Shown here: positions 3,446-7,896 of the stretch, one piece after another
How the letters are laid out: every line of letters starts with the position of its first letter
Position numbering within the stretch: the stretch's first letter is position 1
Made by a program: the position numbers and the translations under genes
IMG/VR virus record: IMGVR_UViG_2690316233_000001
Source of the DNA: a virus
Lineage: Duplodnaviria; Heunggongvirae; Uroviricota; Caudoviricetes
DNA length: 8,137 nucleotides
Reading direction: 5' to 3' (one strand)
Notes under the pieces: model-generated
Seen by the model: only the letters and a program-made list of their open reading frames with translations
What the model was told of the DNA's origin: nothing
The model's database searches: none

Positions 3446-3700
3446 TCAATCGTAATAAGCTGGAATTGATTTTCCGCGTTGCTTCTGGCAGCGAAGGCTT
3501 CCGAGTGATATTGCTTTTTCAGAAAGGCTTAAACGTTTTCTCGGGGCTTCCTGAACAGGTTCCTCACTGTCTGTGCCGAAGATCGAATCGATGATGTTGC
3601 ATATAGCATCACGCTCGATAGCCAGCTTTCTGCGCCGCTCATGACGGCGAGTTTTGGCATTTCCTGCAAATGTTGATTTCCCGTACACGATTACCGTCAT
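3446..3700 (-). CDS. N: N-family transcription antiterminator, P22 gene-24-type (arginine-rich motif at N-terminus)
   Basis: Track ORF 3446..3784; the internal Met at 3700 gives MTVIVYGKSTFAGNAKTRRHERRRKLAIERD..., which resembles the P22 gp24 N-terminus and arginine-rich motif as I recall it. A strong Shine-Dalgarno GAGGAA lies 6 nt upstream of this ATG. The C-terminus (...QKQRGKSIPAYYD) resembles the lambda N C-terminus (...GKSIPLI). The upstream 28 in-frame codons have no RBS and are probably not translated. Confidence 0.8.
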   Translation of the reverse strand: MTVIVYGKSTFAGNAKTRRHERRRKLAIERDAICNIIDSIFGTDSEEPVQEAPRKRLSLSEKAISLGSLRCQKQRGKSIPAYYD

Positions 3701-3819
3701 GATGTTTTCCTCATGTGAAATGGCTTTGGGGGTGATGTGCCAGATGCTGATCTTCTGGTTGCTGTCGTTGCAGCTGCAATTCACATCACCGCCAAATCCA
3801 TCTCGTTTGGTATCTGTTT

Positions 3820-3853
3820 GCGCTTTGTCAGCGCCCCATCGAAGTTAAAGAGC
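3820..3853 (-). promoter_or_regulatory. nutL site: boxA-like (3845-3853) and boxB hairpin (3820-3834), P22 type
   Basis: Minus strand reads GGCTCTTTAACTTCGATGGGGCGCTGACAAAGCGCAAAC. GCTCTTTAA fits the boxA consensus CGCTCTTTA with one mismatch; GCGCTGACAAAGCGC is a perfect 5-bp stem with a 5-nt loop and is the P22 nutL boxB sequence as I recall it. Lies between the presumed pL and the N start. Confidence 0.75.
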
Positions 3854-3859
3854 CTGCCA

Positions 3860-4010
3860 ATCTGTTCCGTTTGGCTGCCAGCATCCTGCTGACGGCGATA
3901 ATAATGAACTAATGGTTCGATATTATCAAGAACTGCAAGTACGAGATTTTGCAACTCTTTAATTTTATTAGATAAGTTTTTGATATGTAATGAAATTTAT
4001 TTTTGCAAAG
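3860..4010 (-). promoter_or_regulatory. pL promoter / OL operator region (exact -35/-10 not resolved)
   Basis: AT-rich region upstream of nutL and N. Contains TTGCAA hexamers (3948-3953 and about 4004-4009) and an ACTGCAAGTACGA motif (3932-3944) that also occurs in the cI-cro intergenic region. I could not find a -35/-10 pair with canonical spacing. Confidence 0.45.
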
Positions 4011-4120: not shown

Positions 4121-4143
4121 CCCGGCGCAGAGGCCGGGTTTTT
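4121..4143. terminator. Bidirectional rho-independent terminator (tImm-like) between the repressor operon and pL
   Basis: Stem CCCGGC (4121-4126) / GCCGGG (4133-4138) with loop GCAGAG. Followed by TTTTT on the plus strand (4139-4143) and preceded by AAAA (4117-4120), which gives a U-tract on the minus strand, directly after the stop of the 258-aa gene at 4144. Confidence 0.7.
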
Positions 4144-4920
4144 CTAGGCTACCAGAGAGTCAATCCAAGAGTCTCTGGTATGGAATGGCAACACTCGTGC
4201 GGTATCATTAAATAGTAGTGATAGTTGCTGTAGCTCAGGTGTTAACCCATCGCTGTCAACTATTACAAATCTATTGTTTATGTCAGGAACGACCTGACTT
4301 AAGTCAACAATCTTCCCAACTGTTGAGTGGGCAGTATTCCATCCTTTACTGCTGGCAAGGCTTACCGTAAACCCGCGTTTTGGTGGTATTAGTCGAGACT
4401 CATTCCTTAGCGTTAACGGAACAGTAATGTTATGCCCACTAATACCTTTCACTTTTTCCTTTAAGGCTAGTCGCTTCCCAAGCCCTGCTGATTTTAAGTA
4501 ACTGATTACACATTTTTCGAACTTATCGTCTTTGACCTCAGCATACCAATCAGCAGTTTGGGCGGATGCAAGAATCCCACCACGAATAACATTTGCAGTT
4601 ACCTGTCCAACGGACGACTCATCTGCCCACGCAGATATCTCTCCAGAGTCATTTAATGAAATTCCTTGCGAAGCGAGTGATGACCTGATCAGATCAATTT
4701 TCTTTTTAGTCAGGTGGATGCCGCGTGATTCAATATTCATCAATGTATCGCAGTAGTCTGTAACCCTATACTGACCACTCATCTCTTGAACGAATACGCT
4801 TATCTGCTCACAATCATCGTAGTATGTGAAGGGACTAATAACGCGCAGCAACGTGTCGCTCATTGGGTGGCATTCAAACCCGAGCTTAGATATGACTGTT
4901 GAACACGTTACATTTCCCAT
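4144..4920 (-). CDS. Hypothetical protein, 258 aa; distal gene of a two-gene module downstream of cI; candidate exclusion/defence protein
   Basis: Long uninterrupted ORF (MGNVTCSTVISKLGFECHPMSDTLLRV...RDSWIDSLVA). Its start overlaps the 3' end of the upstream 180-aa ORF by 13 nt, suggesting translational coupling. No long hydrophobic segments, so probably soluble. I recognise no family. The start codon is uncertain: weak RBS, and Met20 at 4863 is an alternative. Confidence 0.65.
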   Translation of the reverse strand: MGNVTCSTVISKLGFECHPMSDTLLRVISPFTYYDDCEQISVFVQEMSGQYRVTDYCDTLMNIESRGIHLTKKKIDLIRSSLASQGISLNDSGEISAWADESSVGQVTANVIRGGILASAQTADWYAEVKDDKFEKCVISYLKSAGLGKRLALKEKVKGISGHNITVPLTLRNESRLIPPKRGFTVSLASSKGWNTAHSTVGKIVDLSQVVPDINNRFVIVDSDGLTPELQQLSLLFNDTARVLPFHTRDSWIDSLVA

Positions 4921-5450
4921 GATAGCTGACCTGATTTATCTTGATTCGGTAAAGGTGGGCTGCCTTCATATATGATATTAAGCGCCTCGCAAAAATAATT
5001 CCAGTAGCCAAAAAAATCATCTGGCTTGATGTTCGTTTCAAGCTTGAGTGCAATTTCTTCCCCAGCTGATTCGAAGTACATGTGATAGTGAGGACCTCGA
5101 GCCACCTCAACAAAATCTGGATGGTGCACTATAGATTTATTACGGTGTGACTTGTTATGCGCAGGGTACGGGTCAAGCGCGTAAATGCGCCTGTCATGAA
5201 GAAACATCACAAATGAAAGCTTCACTATATCCACCCCTTCAACGATAGGAGAACGCCAGTGAAGCATAAATCTTATGCCTGTGATTGGGTTGCCAATTTC
5301 ATCAAAAGCTTTGAGATCCAATTTAAACCAGATTGGGGTTCGTCCCTCACTTCCGGTCCACGAAACTCCGCTAAAAGTTACTTTTTTCAAGCGAGTAATA
5401 GCTTGGTCAACCTCTTTCTGGGTAGGCTTAAAGTCGCCTTTTTTAGCCAC
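4908..5450 (-). CDS. Hypothetical protein, 180 aa; proximal gene of the two-gene module downstream of cI; candidate exclusion/defence protein
   Basis: ORF (MAKKGDFKPTQKEVDQAITRLKK...IVHHPDFVEVARGPHYHMYFES...SGQLSWEM). The start codon at 5450 is GTG, with a GGTGA Shine-Dalgarno-like sequence about 9 nt upstream and an in-frame stop at 5460-5462 that bounds the N-terminus. Contains a histidine-rich stretch (HHPDF...HYHMYF). No long hydrophobic segments. I recognise no family. Confidence 0.6.
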   Translation of the reverse strand: MAKKGDFKPTQKEVDQAITRLKKVTFSGVSWTGSEGRTPIWFKLDLKAFDEIGNPITGIRFMLHWRSPIVEGVDIVKLSFVMFLHDRRIYALDPYPAHNKSHRNKSIVHHPDFVEVARGPHYHMYFESAGEEIALKLETNIKPDDFFGYWNYFCEALNIIYEGSPPLPNQDKSGQLSWEM

Positions 5451-5547: not shown

Positions 5548-6255
5548 TCACGAACTTTTAATCCATTCCCTTGCCTCGATGTCATCTAGGTGGCGAGATT
5601 GCTTCAAAATACCAGCCACATACTCCACCTTTGCTACTTGATGATAAGGCAACGTTATTGGCCTGTGGTCTTGATTGATGCTTGTAAATTGGTATTCTCC
5701 GTCTCTGTCATAGCCAAGAACCTTGATCATGTTGTGCCCTTCAATGGTTCTGACAAACACTTCATCACCTGGGAATACTTTGGTGTTAGGCTCAATGAGT
5801 ACATATTCTCCTGATTTAATTCTGGGCCACATGCTGTCTCCTTTTACACGAAGACCAAAGGCATCTGGATCATCGCTATAAATCTTGAGCCACCCATCGC
5901 GCTCTTCGGTCATCTCGATGGCACCATCAACACCAAGAATTGCCTCACCAACCACGCGCACTAACCCTTTTTTTAATTTGCCAACAATTGAAAAAGTATC
6001 TTCATCATTCGCTCCATTTAACGAAGTGCCGTGCTGAAGCCAAACAACATCAACGTTTAGAAATTTCGCAAGCGCATTCATTTTTTCCTGGCGTGGTAAA
6101 GACTCAGCATTAAACCATTTGCTAACGCCTTTGGACGAAAGAGAAAGGGCACGGGCTATGGCCATTCCCCTACCATGTTCATCAAGACCAGCTTCTTTAC
6201 AGGCTTGCGCTAGCCGCTGGGCGAATTCTTTGCGCACTTTTTCATTCTGAACCAT
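5548..6255 (-). CDS. cI: CI-type prophage repressor (N-terminal HTH, C-terminal S24/LexA-like autopeptidase domain)
   Basis: 235-aa ORF with a helix-turn-helix region (RLAQACKEAGLDEHGRGMAIARALSLSSKGVSKWFNAE) and a C-terminal VKGDSMWP...IKVLG region typical of LexA/CI self-cleaving repressors (Ser in GDSM, Lys downstream). Divergently oriented to cro. Not the lambda, 434 or P22 c2 sequence. Confidence 0.9.
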   Translation of the reverse strand: MVQNEKVRKEFAQRLAQACKEAGLDEHGRGMAIARALSLSSKGVSKWFNAESLPRQEKMNALAKFLNVDVVWLQHGTSLNGANDEDTFSIVGKLKKGLVRVVGEAILGVDGAIEMTEERDGWLKIYSDDPDAFGLRVKGDSMWPRIKSGEYVLIEPNTKVFPGDEVFVRTIEGHNMIKVLGYDRDGEYQFTSINQDHRPITLPYHQVAKVEYVAGILKQSRHLDDIEAREWIKSS

Positions 6256-6333
6256 GAGTACGATACTAAAGCACTTGCAAAAACTTTCAGTTCAATCATA
6301 ATGCGTACTGAAAGTACGAAAAAGGGTATTCCT
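6256..6333. promoter_or_regulatory. OR region: pR promoter (-35 TTGCAA 6274-6279, -10 CATAAT 6297-6302, 17-bp spacer), pRM, and operator repeats
   Basis: The pR hexamers are near consensus with a 17-bp spacer and point into cro. A 15-bp imperfect palindrome CGTACTGAAAGTACG (6304-6318) lies just downstream of the pR -10. The heptamer AGTACGA recurs at 6257-6263, 6313-6319 and in OL at 3938-3944. On the minus strand a -10-like TAGTAT (6263-6268) ends 7 nt before the cI ATG with no SD, suggesting a leaderless cI mRNA as for lambda pRM. Confidence 0.6.
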
Positions 6334-6561
6334 ATGCAAAATCTTGATGAGCCGATTAAAGGTGTCGGCATCCCTGAAGTTGCGAAGGCTTGTGGAGTTA
6401 GCGAAAGGGCTGTCTATAAGTGGCTCAAAAACGGCTTCCTCCCTAAGACTGAGTTTTTTGGGAAAACTAAATACGCATCAAAAATCGAAGAGATTTCTGG
6501 TGGCAAATATCAAGCAAGCGAAATGCTTGAAATAAGCAAAAAGAACCTTCTGGCTGCATAA
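6334..6561 (+). CDS. cro: Cro-like repressor (HTH), 75 aa
   Basis: Track ORF 6301..6561; the ATG at 6301 lies inside the pR -10, so the likely start is the ATG at 6334, preceded by AAAAAGGG. Product MQNLDEPIKGVGIPEVAKACGVSERAVYKWLKNGFLPK... has a clear HTH; it is the first gene rightward of the repressor gene. Confidence 0.8.
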   Translation: MQNLDEPIKGVGIPEVAKACGVSERAVYKWLKNGFLPKTEFFGKTKYASKIEEISGGKYQASEMLEISKKNLLAA

Positions 6562-6667: not shown

Positions 6668-6964
6668 ATGACACAAACAAGTTACAGCAAACTATCACAG
6701 CGCGACGTTGATCGCGCAGAAACAGATTTACTCATCAACCTGTCAACGCTTACCCAGCGCGGTCTGGCAAAGATGATTGGCTGTCATGAATCGAAGATAA
6801 GCAGAACAGACTGGAGGTTTATTGCTTCGGTCTTGTGTGCTTTCGGAATGGCATCAGACATCAGTCCGATTAGTAGGGCTTTTAAGTATGCGCTTGATGA
6901 AATCACAAAGAAAAAACGCCCGGCGGCAACCGAGCGTTCTGAACAAATCCAGATGGAATTCTGA
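6668..6964 (+). CDS. cII: CII-type lysogeny establishment activator (chimeric: divergent N-terminal/HTH part, lambda-identical C-terminus)
   Basis: 98-aa ORF MTQTSYSKLSQRDVDRAETDLLINLSTLTQRGLAKMIGCHESKISR... ending ...KKRPAATERSEQIQMEF, which is the lambda CII C-terminus as I recall it. HTH in the middle; located between cro/tR1 and O. Confidence 0.85.
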   Translation: MTQTSYSKLSQRDVDRAETDLLINLSTLTQRGLAKMIGCHESKISRTDWRFIASVLCAFGMASDISPISRAFKYALDEITKKKRPAATERSEQIQMEF

Positions 6965-6996: not shown

Positions 6997-7896
6997 ATGA
7001 CAAATACAGCAAAAATACTCAACTTCGGCAGAGGTAACTTTGCCGGACAGGAGCGTAATGTGGCAGATCTCGATGATGGTTACGCCAGACTATCAAATAT
7101 GCTGCTTGAGGCTTATTCGGGCGCAGATCTGACCAAGCGACAGTTTAAAGTGCTGCTTGCCATTCTGCGTAAAACCTATGGGTGGAATAAACCAATGGAC
7201 AGAATCACCGATTCTCAACTTAGCGAGATTACAAAGTTACCTGTCAAACGGTGCAATGAAGCCAAGTTAGAACTCGTCAGAATGAATATTATCAAGCAGC
7301 AAGGCGGCATGTTTGGACCAAACAAAAACATCTCAGAATGGTGTATCCCTCAAAACGAGGGAAAATCCCCTAAAACGAGGGATAAAACATCCCTCAAATT
7401 GGGGGATTGCTATCCCTCAAAACAGGGGAACACAAAAGACACTATTACAAAAGAAAAAAGAAAAGATTATTCGTCAGAGAATTCTGGCGAATCCTCTAAC
7501 CAACCAGAAAACGATCTTCCTGTGGAGAAACCAGATGCTGCAATTCAGCGCGGCAGCAAGTGGGGGACAGCAGAAGACCTGACCGCCGCAGAGTGGATGT
7601 TTGACATGGTGAAGACTATCGCACCATCAGCCAGAAAACCGAATTTTGCTGGGTGGGCTAACGATATCCGCCTGATGCGTGAACGTGACGGACGCAACCA
7701 TCGCGACATGTGTGTACTGTTCCGCTGGGCATGCCAGGACAACTTCTGGTCCGGTAACGTGCTTAGCCCGGCCAAACTCCGCGACAAGTGGACCCAGCTC
7801 GAAATCAACCGTAACAAGCAACAGGCAGTCGTGACAGCCAGCAAACCAAAACTGGACCTGACAAACACAGACTGGATTTACGGGGTGGATCTATGA
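6997..7896 (+). CDS. O: Replication initiator O (binds ori iterons)
   Basis: 299-aa ORF (MTNTAKILNFGRGNFAGQERNVADLDDGYARLSNMLLEAYSG...TDWIYGVDL) matches lambda O with a few substitutions; contains ori internally; stop overlaps the P start. Confidence 0.96.
   Translation: MTNTAKILNFGRGNFAGQERNVADLDDGYARLSNMLLEAYSGADLTKRQFKVLLAILRKTYGWNKPMDRITDSQLSEITKLPVKRCNEAKLELVRMNIIKQQGGMFGPNKNISEWCIPQNEGKSPKTRDKTSLKLGDCYPSKQGNTKDTITKEKRKDYSSENSGESSNQPENDLPVEKPDAAIQRGSKWGTAEDLTAAEWMFDMVKTIAPSARKPNFAGWANDIRLMRERDGRNHRDMCVLFRWACQDNFWSGNVLSPAKLRDKWTQLEINRNKQQAVVTASKPKLDLTNTDWIYGVDL
7344..7475. repeat. ori-lambda-type origin: four direct iterons (about 18-19 bp each, ATCCCTCAAAACGAGGGA-like) followed by an AT-rich region
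   Basis: Seen directly: TATCCCTCAAAACGAGGGAAA / AATCCCCTAAAACGAGGGATA / CATCCCTCAAATTGGGGGATT / TATCCCTCAAAACAGGGGAAC, then ACAAAAGACACTATTACAAAAGAAAAAAGAAAAGATTAT. Located in the middle of the O gene, as in lambda. Confidence 0.88.

What the first reader, a model, noticed from the sequence alone, without database searches (positions are those of the whole stretch)
6256..6333. Non-lambda immunity specificity: candidate operator motif shared by OR and OL, and a probably leaderless cI
The repressor is not lambda CI, and the cI-cro intergenic region carries a 15-bp imperfect palindrome CGTACTGAAAGTACG (6304-6318) immediately downstream of a strong pR. The heptamer AGTACGA occurs three times in this region and in OL (6257-6263, 6313-6319, 3938-3944; the OL copy sits in ACTGCAAGTACGA, matching the OR site at 12 of 13 positions). 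These are candidate operator half-sites for this repressor/Cro pair. The cI ATG lies 7 nt after a -10-like TAGTAT with no Shine-Dalgarno, which suggests a leaderless pRM transcript as in lambda.
Basis: partly seen in the sequence, partly recalled or inferred. Interest (0 to 1): 0.4.

Follow-up and report, generated by a model that had tools for sequence, protein, structure and literature searches.

The report
Phage 933W-type operators, leaderless repressor gene
The repeated motif is the already mapped set of repressor-binding sites of the Shiga-toxin phage 933W immunity system, carried here by an E. coli prophage, and its repressor mRNA does start at the AUG; the finding is correct but ordinary.

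Summary
Every sequence fact in the finding is correct. The window carries the immunity module of Shiga-toxin phage 933W. Its CI is 231/235 identical to 933W CI, with residues 1-87 identical, and its Cro is 75/75 identical. The AGTACGA copies are the right half-sites of OR1, OR3 and OL2, each plus one flanking base. All three OR sites are identical to the sites annotated in the 933W record and footprinted in the literature. The two OL sites are natural variants that differ only at positions 6-8. The motif nGWACYnnnRGTWCn hits four times, all at these sites, against 0.04 expected. The leaderless reading also holds. Published Cappable-seq of EDL933 puts the only cI start site on the A of the ATG, in all eight conditions. 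It also confirms pR (+1 at window 6310) and pL (+1 at 3893). No Shine-Dalgarno precedes cI. One 2018 paper says 933W cI mRNA has one, which these data contradict. Verdict: real and correctly read, but already known.

The parts
6304..6318 (.). OR1, CGTACTGAAAGTACG. It covers pR positions -6 to +9.
   Evidence: It is identical to 'operator oR1' of NC_000924 (12831-12845). PMC3317979 describes OR1 as the tightest natural site, bound about 10-fold more tightly than the consensus, and reports that T at position 3 raises affinity.
6280..6294 (.). OR2, AAAACTTTCAGTTCA. It fills the pR spacer (-30 to -16) and is centred at -32 from the pRM start.
   Evidence: It is identical to oR2 of NC_000924. It is the only site with A instead of G at position 2 of one half-site, exactly as PMC3317979 describes OR2.
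6248..6262 (.). OR3, TGAACCATGAGTACG. It is centred on base 6255, which is both the A of the cI ATG and the pRM start.
   Evidence: It is identical to oR3 of NC_000924 (12775-12789). It also spans the ATG in Salmonella phages SF6 and MS2 LVA.
3905..3919 (.). OL1, TGAACTAATGGTTCG. It covers pL positions -12 to -26.
   Evidence: It is the top weight-matrix hit in the window and an exact motif hit. It aligns with OL1 of phi24B and 933W, TGAACCAATAGTTCG, and differs only at positions 6 and 6'.
3929..3943 (.). OL2, AGAACTGCAAGTACG.
   Evidence: It is an exact motif hit and lies 24 bp centre to centre from OL1, as in 933W. It aligns with 933W OL2, AGAACTATTGGTACG, and Lambda_2E9 AGAACTATAAGTACG. Positions 1-6 and 1'-5' are kept; the centre varies.
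6275..6310 (+). pR: -35 TTGCAA (6275-6280), 16-nt spacer, -10 CATAAT (6297-6302), +1 at G 6310. The cro leader is 24 nt.
   Evidence: The promoter scan finds it and NC_000924 annotates pR here. The Cappable-seq start 1346320(+) in EDL933 maps to window 6310.
6255..6290 (-). pRM: -35-like CTGAAA (6290-6285), 16-nt spacer, -10 TAGTAT (6268-6263), +1 at 6255, the A of the cI ATG. The mRNA is leaderless.
   Evidence: NC_000924 annotates 'pM' here. The Cappable-seq start 1346265(-) is the last base of CDS complement(1345558..1346265), found in 8 of 8 conditions, with no other start between 1346200 and 1346319 in the held tables. The arrangement of -10 hexamer, 7 nt, then ATG is conserved in SF6 and MS2 LVA.
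3893..3929 (-). pL: -35 TTGATA (3929-3924), 17-nt spacer, -10 CATTAT (3906-3901), +1 at 3893.
   Evidence: The promoter scan finds it. The Cappable-seq start 1343173(-) in EDL933, present in 8 of 8 conditions, maps to window 3893.
5548..6255 (-). cI repressor gene (235 aa; HTH plus S24 peptidase domains).
   Evidence: Pfam gives HTH_3 and Peptidase_S24. The protein is 231/235 identical to 933W CI, with residues 1-87 identical.
6334..6561 (+). cro gene (75 aa).
   Evidence: The protein is 75/75 identical to 933W Cro. The pR start at 6310 excludes the in-frame upstream ATG at 6301.

Best explanation
The window holds the early regulatory region of a lambdoid E. coli prophage that carries the phage 933W immunity module.

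How it most likely works: CI dimers recognise five 15-bp dyad sites of the form nG(A/T)AC(T/C)nnn(A/G)GT(A/T)Cn.

- At OR, the tightest site, OR1, lies over the pR start, and OR2 fills the pR spacer. Occupying these two sites shuts off pR.
- OR3 is centred exactly on the pRM start, which is also the cI AUG. Filling OR3 at somewhat higher repressor concentration shuts off cI itself.
- At OL, OL1 (spacer and -10) and OL2 (upstream edge of the -35) shut off pL. There is no OL3.
- cI is transcribed from pRM as a leaderless mRNA beginning with AUG.
- Cro, which is identical to 933W Cro, is expected to use the same sites after induction.

Shown here: sequence identity of CI's DNA-binding domain, of Cro and of the three OR sites to 933W; the motif statistics; the positions of promoters and sites; and the mapping of published start sites onto the window.

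Taken from the literature for 933W itself: repressor binding (footprints and EMSA), the affinity order OR1 > OR2 ~ OR3, the lack of cooperativity, and the transcription start sites.

Inferred: that this prophage behaves the same way, that its two variant OL sites bind repressor, and that Cro binds the same sites.
For: - Homology: the cI-cro segment is 97-98.6% identical to 933W and relatives in 106 phage records. The CI N-terminal domain and Cro are identical to 933W's.
- Annotation transfer: oR1, oR2, oR3, pM and pR of NC_000924 map onto the window with a constant offset, and the three operators are base-for-base identical.
- Consistency with the biochemistry paper PMC3317979. The five 933W sites I reconstructed reproduce its description: 15 bp; positions 4-5 invariant (A, C); position 2 is G except in one OR2 half-site; position 6 is T in 7 and C in 3 of 10 half-sites; the centre is A/T; OL2 has non-consensus 3' and 6'.
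- Statistics: 4 motif hits against 0.04 expected. Five weight-matrix hits are clearly separated from background, including the two OL sites that were not in the training set.
- Comparative evidence: the sites persist with 24-bp spacing in Lambda_2E9, SF6 (81.5% identity) and MS2 LVA (about 71%), while their flanks diverge.
- Start sites: Cappable-seq in EDL933 places starts at the cI ATG, in OR1 for cro, and 8 nt after the pL -10.
- No Shine-Dalgarno precedes cI. The P27 record also notes 'no RBS found' for cI.
Against: - No binding or transcript data exist for this particular prophage.
- Its OL2 has a G·C centre. In a consensus context that change lowered affinity about 3-fold (PMC3317979), so its strength is unknown.
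- PMC5977221 states that 933W cI mRNA contains a Shine-Dalgarno sequence, citing Tyler 2004, which I could not read.
- With the mapped pRM start, OR2 is centred at -32 and lies over the -35 hexamer. This does not fit the lambda model of activation from -42, although the literature reports that OR2-bound 933W repressor activates pRM.
- The supplementary tables are stored truncated, so a minor additional start site cannot be excluded.
Confidence: 0.92

Rival explanations
1. cI is translated from a leadered pRM transcript that has a ribosome-binding site, so the TAGTAT hexamer is not the functional -10.
For: PMC5977221 says that the repressor mRNAs of 933W and 434 contain a Shine-Dalgarno sequence, unlike those of lambda and BAA2326, citing Tyler et al. 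2004.
Against: - Cappable-seq gives one cI start, exactly on the A of the ATG, in 8 of 8 conditions and with strong signal. No other minus-strand start appears between 1346200 and 1346319 in the held tables.
- The 25 nt upstream of the ATG have no anti-SD complementarity (-0.2 kcal/mol).
- The P27 record notes 'no RBS found' for cI.
- The spacing of -10 hexamer, 7 nt, then ATG is conserved while the hexamer itself changes: TAGTAT, TACTAT, TATAAT.
Confidence: 0.05
2. The palindrome acts as an RNA hairpin, such as a terminator or attenuator in the cro leader or in antisense transcripts, rather than as a protein-binding site.
For: The simple scan flags 6318-6304 on the minus strand as terminator-like: a 6-bp stem followed by CATTATGATT.
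Against: - The pR transcript starts at 6310, inside the palindrome, so cro mRNA cannot form the hairpin.
- The stem has only three G-C pairs and no real T-run follows it.
- The same dyad recurs at four other places with different centres, which fits a DNA-binding motif and not an RNA structure.
Confidence: 0.02
3. The shared heptamers are chance repeats in AT-rich intergenic DNA.
For: Two further AGTACGA copies lie inside coding sequence.
Against: - Five copies against 0.42 expected, and 0 of 200 shuffles reached 5.
- The 15-bp dyad pattern has 4 hits against 0.04 expected, all in OR or OL.
- The sites are conserved in diverged relatives.
Confidence: 0.01

Closest known systems
Immunity region of Shiga-toxin phage 933W and its relatives phi24B, P27 and the Stx2a phages (CI, Cro, OR1-3, OL1-2)
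   Same: - The CI DNA-binding domain and Cro are identical.
- OR1, OR2, OR3, pR and pRM are identical apart from 3 bases outside the operators.
- There are two OL sites 24 bp apart and no OL3.
- pL has the same architecture.
   Different: - OL1 and OL2 differ at positions 6-8. Window OL1 is TGAACTAATGGTTCG against 933W TGAACCAATAGTTCG. Window OL2 is AGAACTGCAAGTACG against 933W AGAACTATTGGTACG.
- CI has 4 substitutions, in the linker and the C-terminal domain.
- The genes between cI and OL are a DUF6978/DUF1828 pair instead of stk and its neighbours.
- N and nutL are of the P22 type.
- No stx gene is in view.
Phage lambda OR/OL switch with leaderless cI
   Same: - Divergent pR and pRM with three operators between cI and cro.
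- CI with HTH and S24 domains.
- cI mRNA starts at the AUG.
- OR3 mediates negative autoregulation.
   Different: - The dyads are 15 bp with a different sequence, not 17 bp.
- There are only two OL sites.
- The literature reports no cooperative binding by the 933W repressor (PMC3317979).
- The pR and pRM starts are 55 bp apart, against about 80 bp in lambda (lambda figure from my own knowledge).
- OR3 sits on the pRM start rather than between its -35 and -10.
- OR2 is centred at -32, not -42.
H-19B / BP-4795-type immunity
   Same: The C-terminal (cleavage and oligomerisation) part of cI, window 5548-6001, is 93.8% identical at the DNA level.
   Different: The N-terminal domain, OR and cro are unrelated, so the operator specificity differs.

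Membership tests
933W-type immunity module (imm933W) | CI DNA-binding domain of 933W specificity | tested here: met
   CI is 231/235 identical to 933W CI, and residues 1-87 are identical.
933W-type immunity module (imm933W) | Cognate Cro | tested here: met
   Cro is 75/75 identical to 933W Cro.
933W-type immunity module (imm933W) | Three 15-bp dyad operators in OR at the annotated positions | tested here: met
   All three sites are identical to oR1, oR2 and oR3 of NC_000924.
933W-type immunity module (imm933W) | Two OL sites and no OL3 | tested here: met
   There are two sites 24 bp apart. No further weight-matrix hit above 4 lies between 3944 and 4144. The two sites are sequence variants of the 933W sites.
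933W-type immunity module (imm933W) | Repressor physically binds these sites and represses pR and pL | not testable with these tools
   This is shown for the identical OR sites of 933W in the literature cited by PMC3317979 (Koudelka 2004; Bullwinkle 2011). It has not been shown for the variant OL sites.
Leaderless cI mRNA (lambda pRM type) | Transcription starts on the A of the AUG | tested here: met
   The Cappable-seq start 1346265(-) is the first base of the cI CDS in EDL933, in 8 of 8 conditions. This is met for 933W. It is transferred to the window by sequence identity from -40 to +12, with one mismatch at -41.
Leaderless cI mRNA (lambda pRM type) | No Shine-Dalgarno, and a -10 element about 7 nt upstream of the ATG | tested here: met
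   The anti-SD duplex energy is -0.2 kcal/mol. TAGTAT is followed by 7 nt and then the ATG, and this spacing is conserved in SF6 and MS2 LVA.
Leaderless cI mRNA (lambda pRM type) | The leaderless transcript is translated | not testable with these tools
   Testing this would need a reporter fusion or N-terminal sequencing.
Lambda-type cooperative OR switch | OR2 centred near -42 of pRM, so that bound repressor touches sigma region 4 | tested here: not met
   The OR2 centre (6287) is 32 bp from the pRM start (6255) and covers the -35-like hexamer. The lambda value is from my own knowledge.
Lambda-type cooperative OR switch | A third OL site for the long-range loop that represses pRM | tested here: not met
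   No third OL site is present. PMC3317979 and PMC5977221 also say that 933W lacks OL3.
Lambda-type cooperative OR switch | Cooperative binding of repressor to OR1 and OR2 | not testable with these tools

The most novel reading that the evidence does not exclude
With the in vivo pRM start on the cI AUG, OR2 of 933W-type phages is centred at -32 and lies on top of the only plausible -35 hexamer. The pR and pRM starts are only 55 bp apart. The reported 'activation' of pRM by repressor therefore cannot use the lambda contact from -42. It may instead be relief of competition from the overlapping pR, or an unusual same-site arrangement of repressor and RNA polymerase. Separately, this prophage's OL2 has a G·C centre and may be a naturally weakened operator. 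I could not read the primary 2004 and 2011 papers, so the geometry question may already have been addressed there.
Probability: 0.15. Interest if true: 0.3.

Novelty: already known. Interest (0 to 1): 0.1.

Why it matters
It matters little as a discovery. The operators, the promoters and the repressor's specificity were annotated in 1999 and dissected biochemically between 2004 and 2012. The module is medically relevant because in Stx phages it gates Shiga-toxin expression.

Three modest points come out of this check:
- A non-Stx E. coli prophage carries the same immunity. It should therefore be homo-immune with 933W-type Stx phages.
- Public Cappable-seq data settle that 933W cI mRNA is leaderless, contrary to a statement in a 2018 paper.
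- Natural OL variants change only the operator centre.

Tried and rejected
- I tried to read the primary mapping papers: Tyler 2004 (PMC524894), Koudelka 2004 (PMC524892), Bullwinkle 2011 (PMC3133280) and Plunkett 1999 (PMC93574). None is held. Their content is used only as reported by PMC3317979, PMC5977221, PMC4848623 and the GenBank annotations.
- A search for '933W' with 'leaderless' found nothing on 933W cI.
- I considered other pRM candidates. One was the palindromic TTGCAA (6280-6275) as a -35 with a -10 at CATGGT and a start near 6245. Another was CATTAT (6303-6298) as a -10 with a start near 6290. I rejected both because no Cappable-seq start lies at 1346200-1346259 or 1346266-1346319. 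The first would also skip the start codon.
- I considered TTGCAA (3949-3954) as the pL -35 with GATAAT as the -10. I rejected it because the spacer would be 21 nt. The scan and the mapped start both support TTGATA / 17 nt / CATTAT.
- I considered the 57-aa ORF at 3781-3954 (minus strand). It has no Pfam hit and begins upstream of the pL start, so it is probably not a gene.
- The terminator scan did not flag the 4121-4138 hairpin. Its assignment rests on homology to the 'tM' feature of 933W.

Full report
**What is in the window.** The window is the early region of a lambdoid prophage.
- Leftward genes: exo (236-916), bet (913-1698), gam (1704-2120) and a P22-type N (3446-3700).
- Two genes of unknown function on the minus strand: 4144-4920 and 4908-5450.
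- The repressor gene cI (5548-6255, minus strand; HTH plus Peptidase_S24 domains).
- Rightward genes: cro (6334-6561), cII (6668-6964) and O (6997-7896).

The finding concerns the 78-bp cI-cro spacer (6256-6333) and the region upstream of N.

**Check of the observation.** Every sequence statement is correct.
- The palindrome CGTACTGAAAGTACG is at 6304-6318.
- AGTACGA is at 6257-6263, 6313-6319 and 3938-3944.
- The OL copy matches the OR copy at 12 of 13 positions.
- On the minus strand, TAGTAT (6268-6263) is followed by 7 nt and then the cI ATG.
- The heptamer occurs five times in the window, not three. The two extra copies are inside genes. Five copies against 0.42 expected is still non-random.

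**Identity of the module.** The cI-cro segment is 97-98.6% identical to phage 933W and more than 100 related records. CI is 231/235 identical to 933W CI. All four changes lie after residue 87, so the DNA-binding domain is identical. Cro is 75/75 identical.

The 933W RefSeq record annotates oR3, pM, pR, oR2 and oR1. With a constant offset these fall in the window at:
- oR3: 6248-6262
- pM: 6263-6290, minus strand
- pR: 6275-6302
- oR2: 6280-6294
- oR1: 6304-6318

The window differs from 933W at only three bases of the spacer, none inside an operator. The heptamer at 6257-6263 is the right half of OR3 plus one flanking base. The left half of OR3 lies inside cI, so the site is centred on the A of the start codon.

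**The left operator.** The phi24B record annotates OL1 and OL2, and the same sequences are in 933W. The window has homologous sites 24 bp apart:
- OL1, 3905-3919: TGAACTAATGGTTCG
- OL2, 3929-3943: AGAACTGCAAGTACG

Both sites differ from their 933W counterparts only at positions 6-8. This OL variant is at least 99% identical in 13 complete E. coli genome records, so the window is probably an ordinary E. coli prophage.

**Agreement with the biochemistry.** PMC3317979 (Bullwinkle et al. 2012) describes five natural sites. Each is 15 bp and rotationally symmetric.
- Positions 4-5 are invariant.
- Position 2 is G except in one half of OR2.
- Position 6 is T in 7 and C in 3 of 10 half-sites.
- The centre is A/T.
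- OR1 is the tightest site.
- T at position 3 raises affinity.
- There is no OL3 and no cooperative binding.

The five 933W sites I reconstructed from the records reproduce every one of these counts. PMC5977221 gives the relative dissociation constants in intact OR as OR1 = 1, OR2 = 13.6 and OR3 = 26.4.

**Statistics and comparison.** The pattern nGWACYnnnRGTWCn hits four times, at OL1, OL2, OR3 and OR1, against 0.04 expected. A half-site weight matrix built from the 933W sites ranks exactly five window sites (12.3-18.9) above the next best (8.5). These five include the two OL sites, which were not in the training set. The sites and their 24-bp spacing persist in Lambda_2E9, Salmonella phage SF6 (81.5% identity) and MS2 LVA (about 71%), while the flanks diverge.

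**Promoters and the leaderless question.** The promoter scan finds two promoters:
- pR: TTGCAA / 16 nt / CATAAT.
- pL: TTGATA / 17 nt / CATTAT on the minus strand.

A Cappable-seq study of the 933W lysogen EDL933 (PMC10469882, Table S5) lists three starts, each in all eight conditions. One is at 1346265(-) for cI, one at 1346320(+) for cro, and one at 1343173(-) upstream of N. In NZ_CP008957 the cI CDS is complement(1345558..1346265), so the cI start is the A of the ATG. No other start lies between 1346200 and 1346319 in the held, truncated tables.

Mapped onto the window, the starts are:
- pRM +1 at 6255
- pR +1 at 6310, a G inside OR1
- pL +1 at 3893

The 25 nt upstream of cI have no anti-SD complementarity (-0.2 kcal/mol, against -4.2 to -7.3 for five other genes). 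The arrangement of -10 hexamer, 7 nt, then ATG is kept in SF6 (TACTAT) and MS2 LVA (TATAAT).

The leaderless inference is therefore supported. The statement in PMC5977221 that 933W cI mRNA has a Shine-Dalgarno sequence conflicts with these data. I could not read the paper it cites.

**How it most likely works.**
- Repressor on OR1 (pR -6 to +9) and OR2 (pR -30 to -16) blocks pR.
- Repressor on OL1 (pL -12 to -26) and OL2 (pL -36 to -50) blocks pL.
- Repressor on OR3 (pRM -7 to +8) blocks cI's own promoter.

Binding and regulation are taken from the literature on 933W. Their transfer to this prophage is inference from identity.

One point does not fit lambda. OR2 is centred 32 bp, not 42 bp, from the pRM start. 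It covers the -35-like hexamer, and the two divergent starts are only 55 bp apart. How OR2-bound repressor activates pRM, as the literature reports, is not explained by anything I could read.

**Verdict.** The feature is already known, and interest is low.

Noticed in passing
window 4144-5450 (minus strand): Two overlapping genes lie between cI and OL, where lambda has rexAB. They are 4908-5450 (DUF6978) and 4144-4920 (DUF1828). They give weak hits to the two components of the PADLOC candidate defence system PDC-M24 (A: 1.5e-3; B: 6e-7). 933W carries stk and other genes at this position instead.
   Followed up: partly
window 6301-6333: An in-frame ATG at 6301 gives an 86-aa cro ORF, which some records annotate (for example LR595860). 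The mapped pR start at 6310 lies downstream of it, so the 75-aa form starting at 6334 is the real one.
   Followed up: partly
window 5548-6001: cI is a mosaic. Its C-terminal part is 93.8% identical in phages of H-19B-type immunity (BP-4795 and several Stx1a phages). Those matches do not extend into the N-terminal domain, OR or cro.
   Followed up: partly
window 3446-3893: N is of the P22 type (arginine-rich motif GNAKTRRHERRRKLAIERD). On the minus strand, boxB is at 3820-3834 and boxA at 3844-3853. Alignment A3 shows a mosaic joint just downstream of the pL start: the window and Lambda_2E9 share one nutL, while 933W and SF6 share another.
   Followed up: partly
L005 1618-1632; L011 1509-1523: Salmonella phages SF6 and MS2 LVA each have a possible third operator-like site near OL (weight-matrix scores 12.5 and 9.2). 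The window and 933W have none.
   Followed up: no
PMC5977221 section 3.3 versus PMC10469882 Table S5: The literature disagrees with itself. One paper says 933W cI mRNA has a Shine-Dalgarno sequence. Cappable-seq data place the only cI start on the A of the AUG.
   Followed up: partly
window 5551-5565: A weak operator-like hit, CGAACTTTTAATCCA (score about 9), lies next to the cI stop codon. It is probably chance.
   Followed up: no
window 4121-4138: A G+C-rich hairpin (CCCGGC-GCAGAG-GCCGGG) is flanked by A and T runs. It is homologous to the feature annotated 'tM' (terminator of the pM transcript) in 933W. The simple terminator scan did not flag it.
   Followed up: partly
window 6677-6690 (minus strand): TTGCTGTAACTTGT lies inside the start of cII and resembles the CII-binding repeat of a pRE promoter (one mismatch). 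It is not statistically distinguishable from chance.
   Followed up: no
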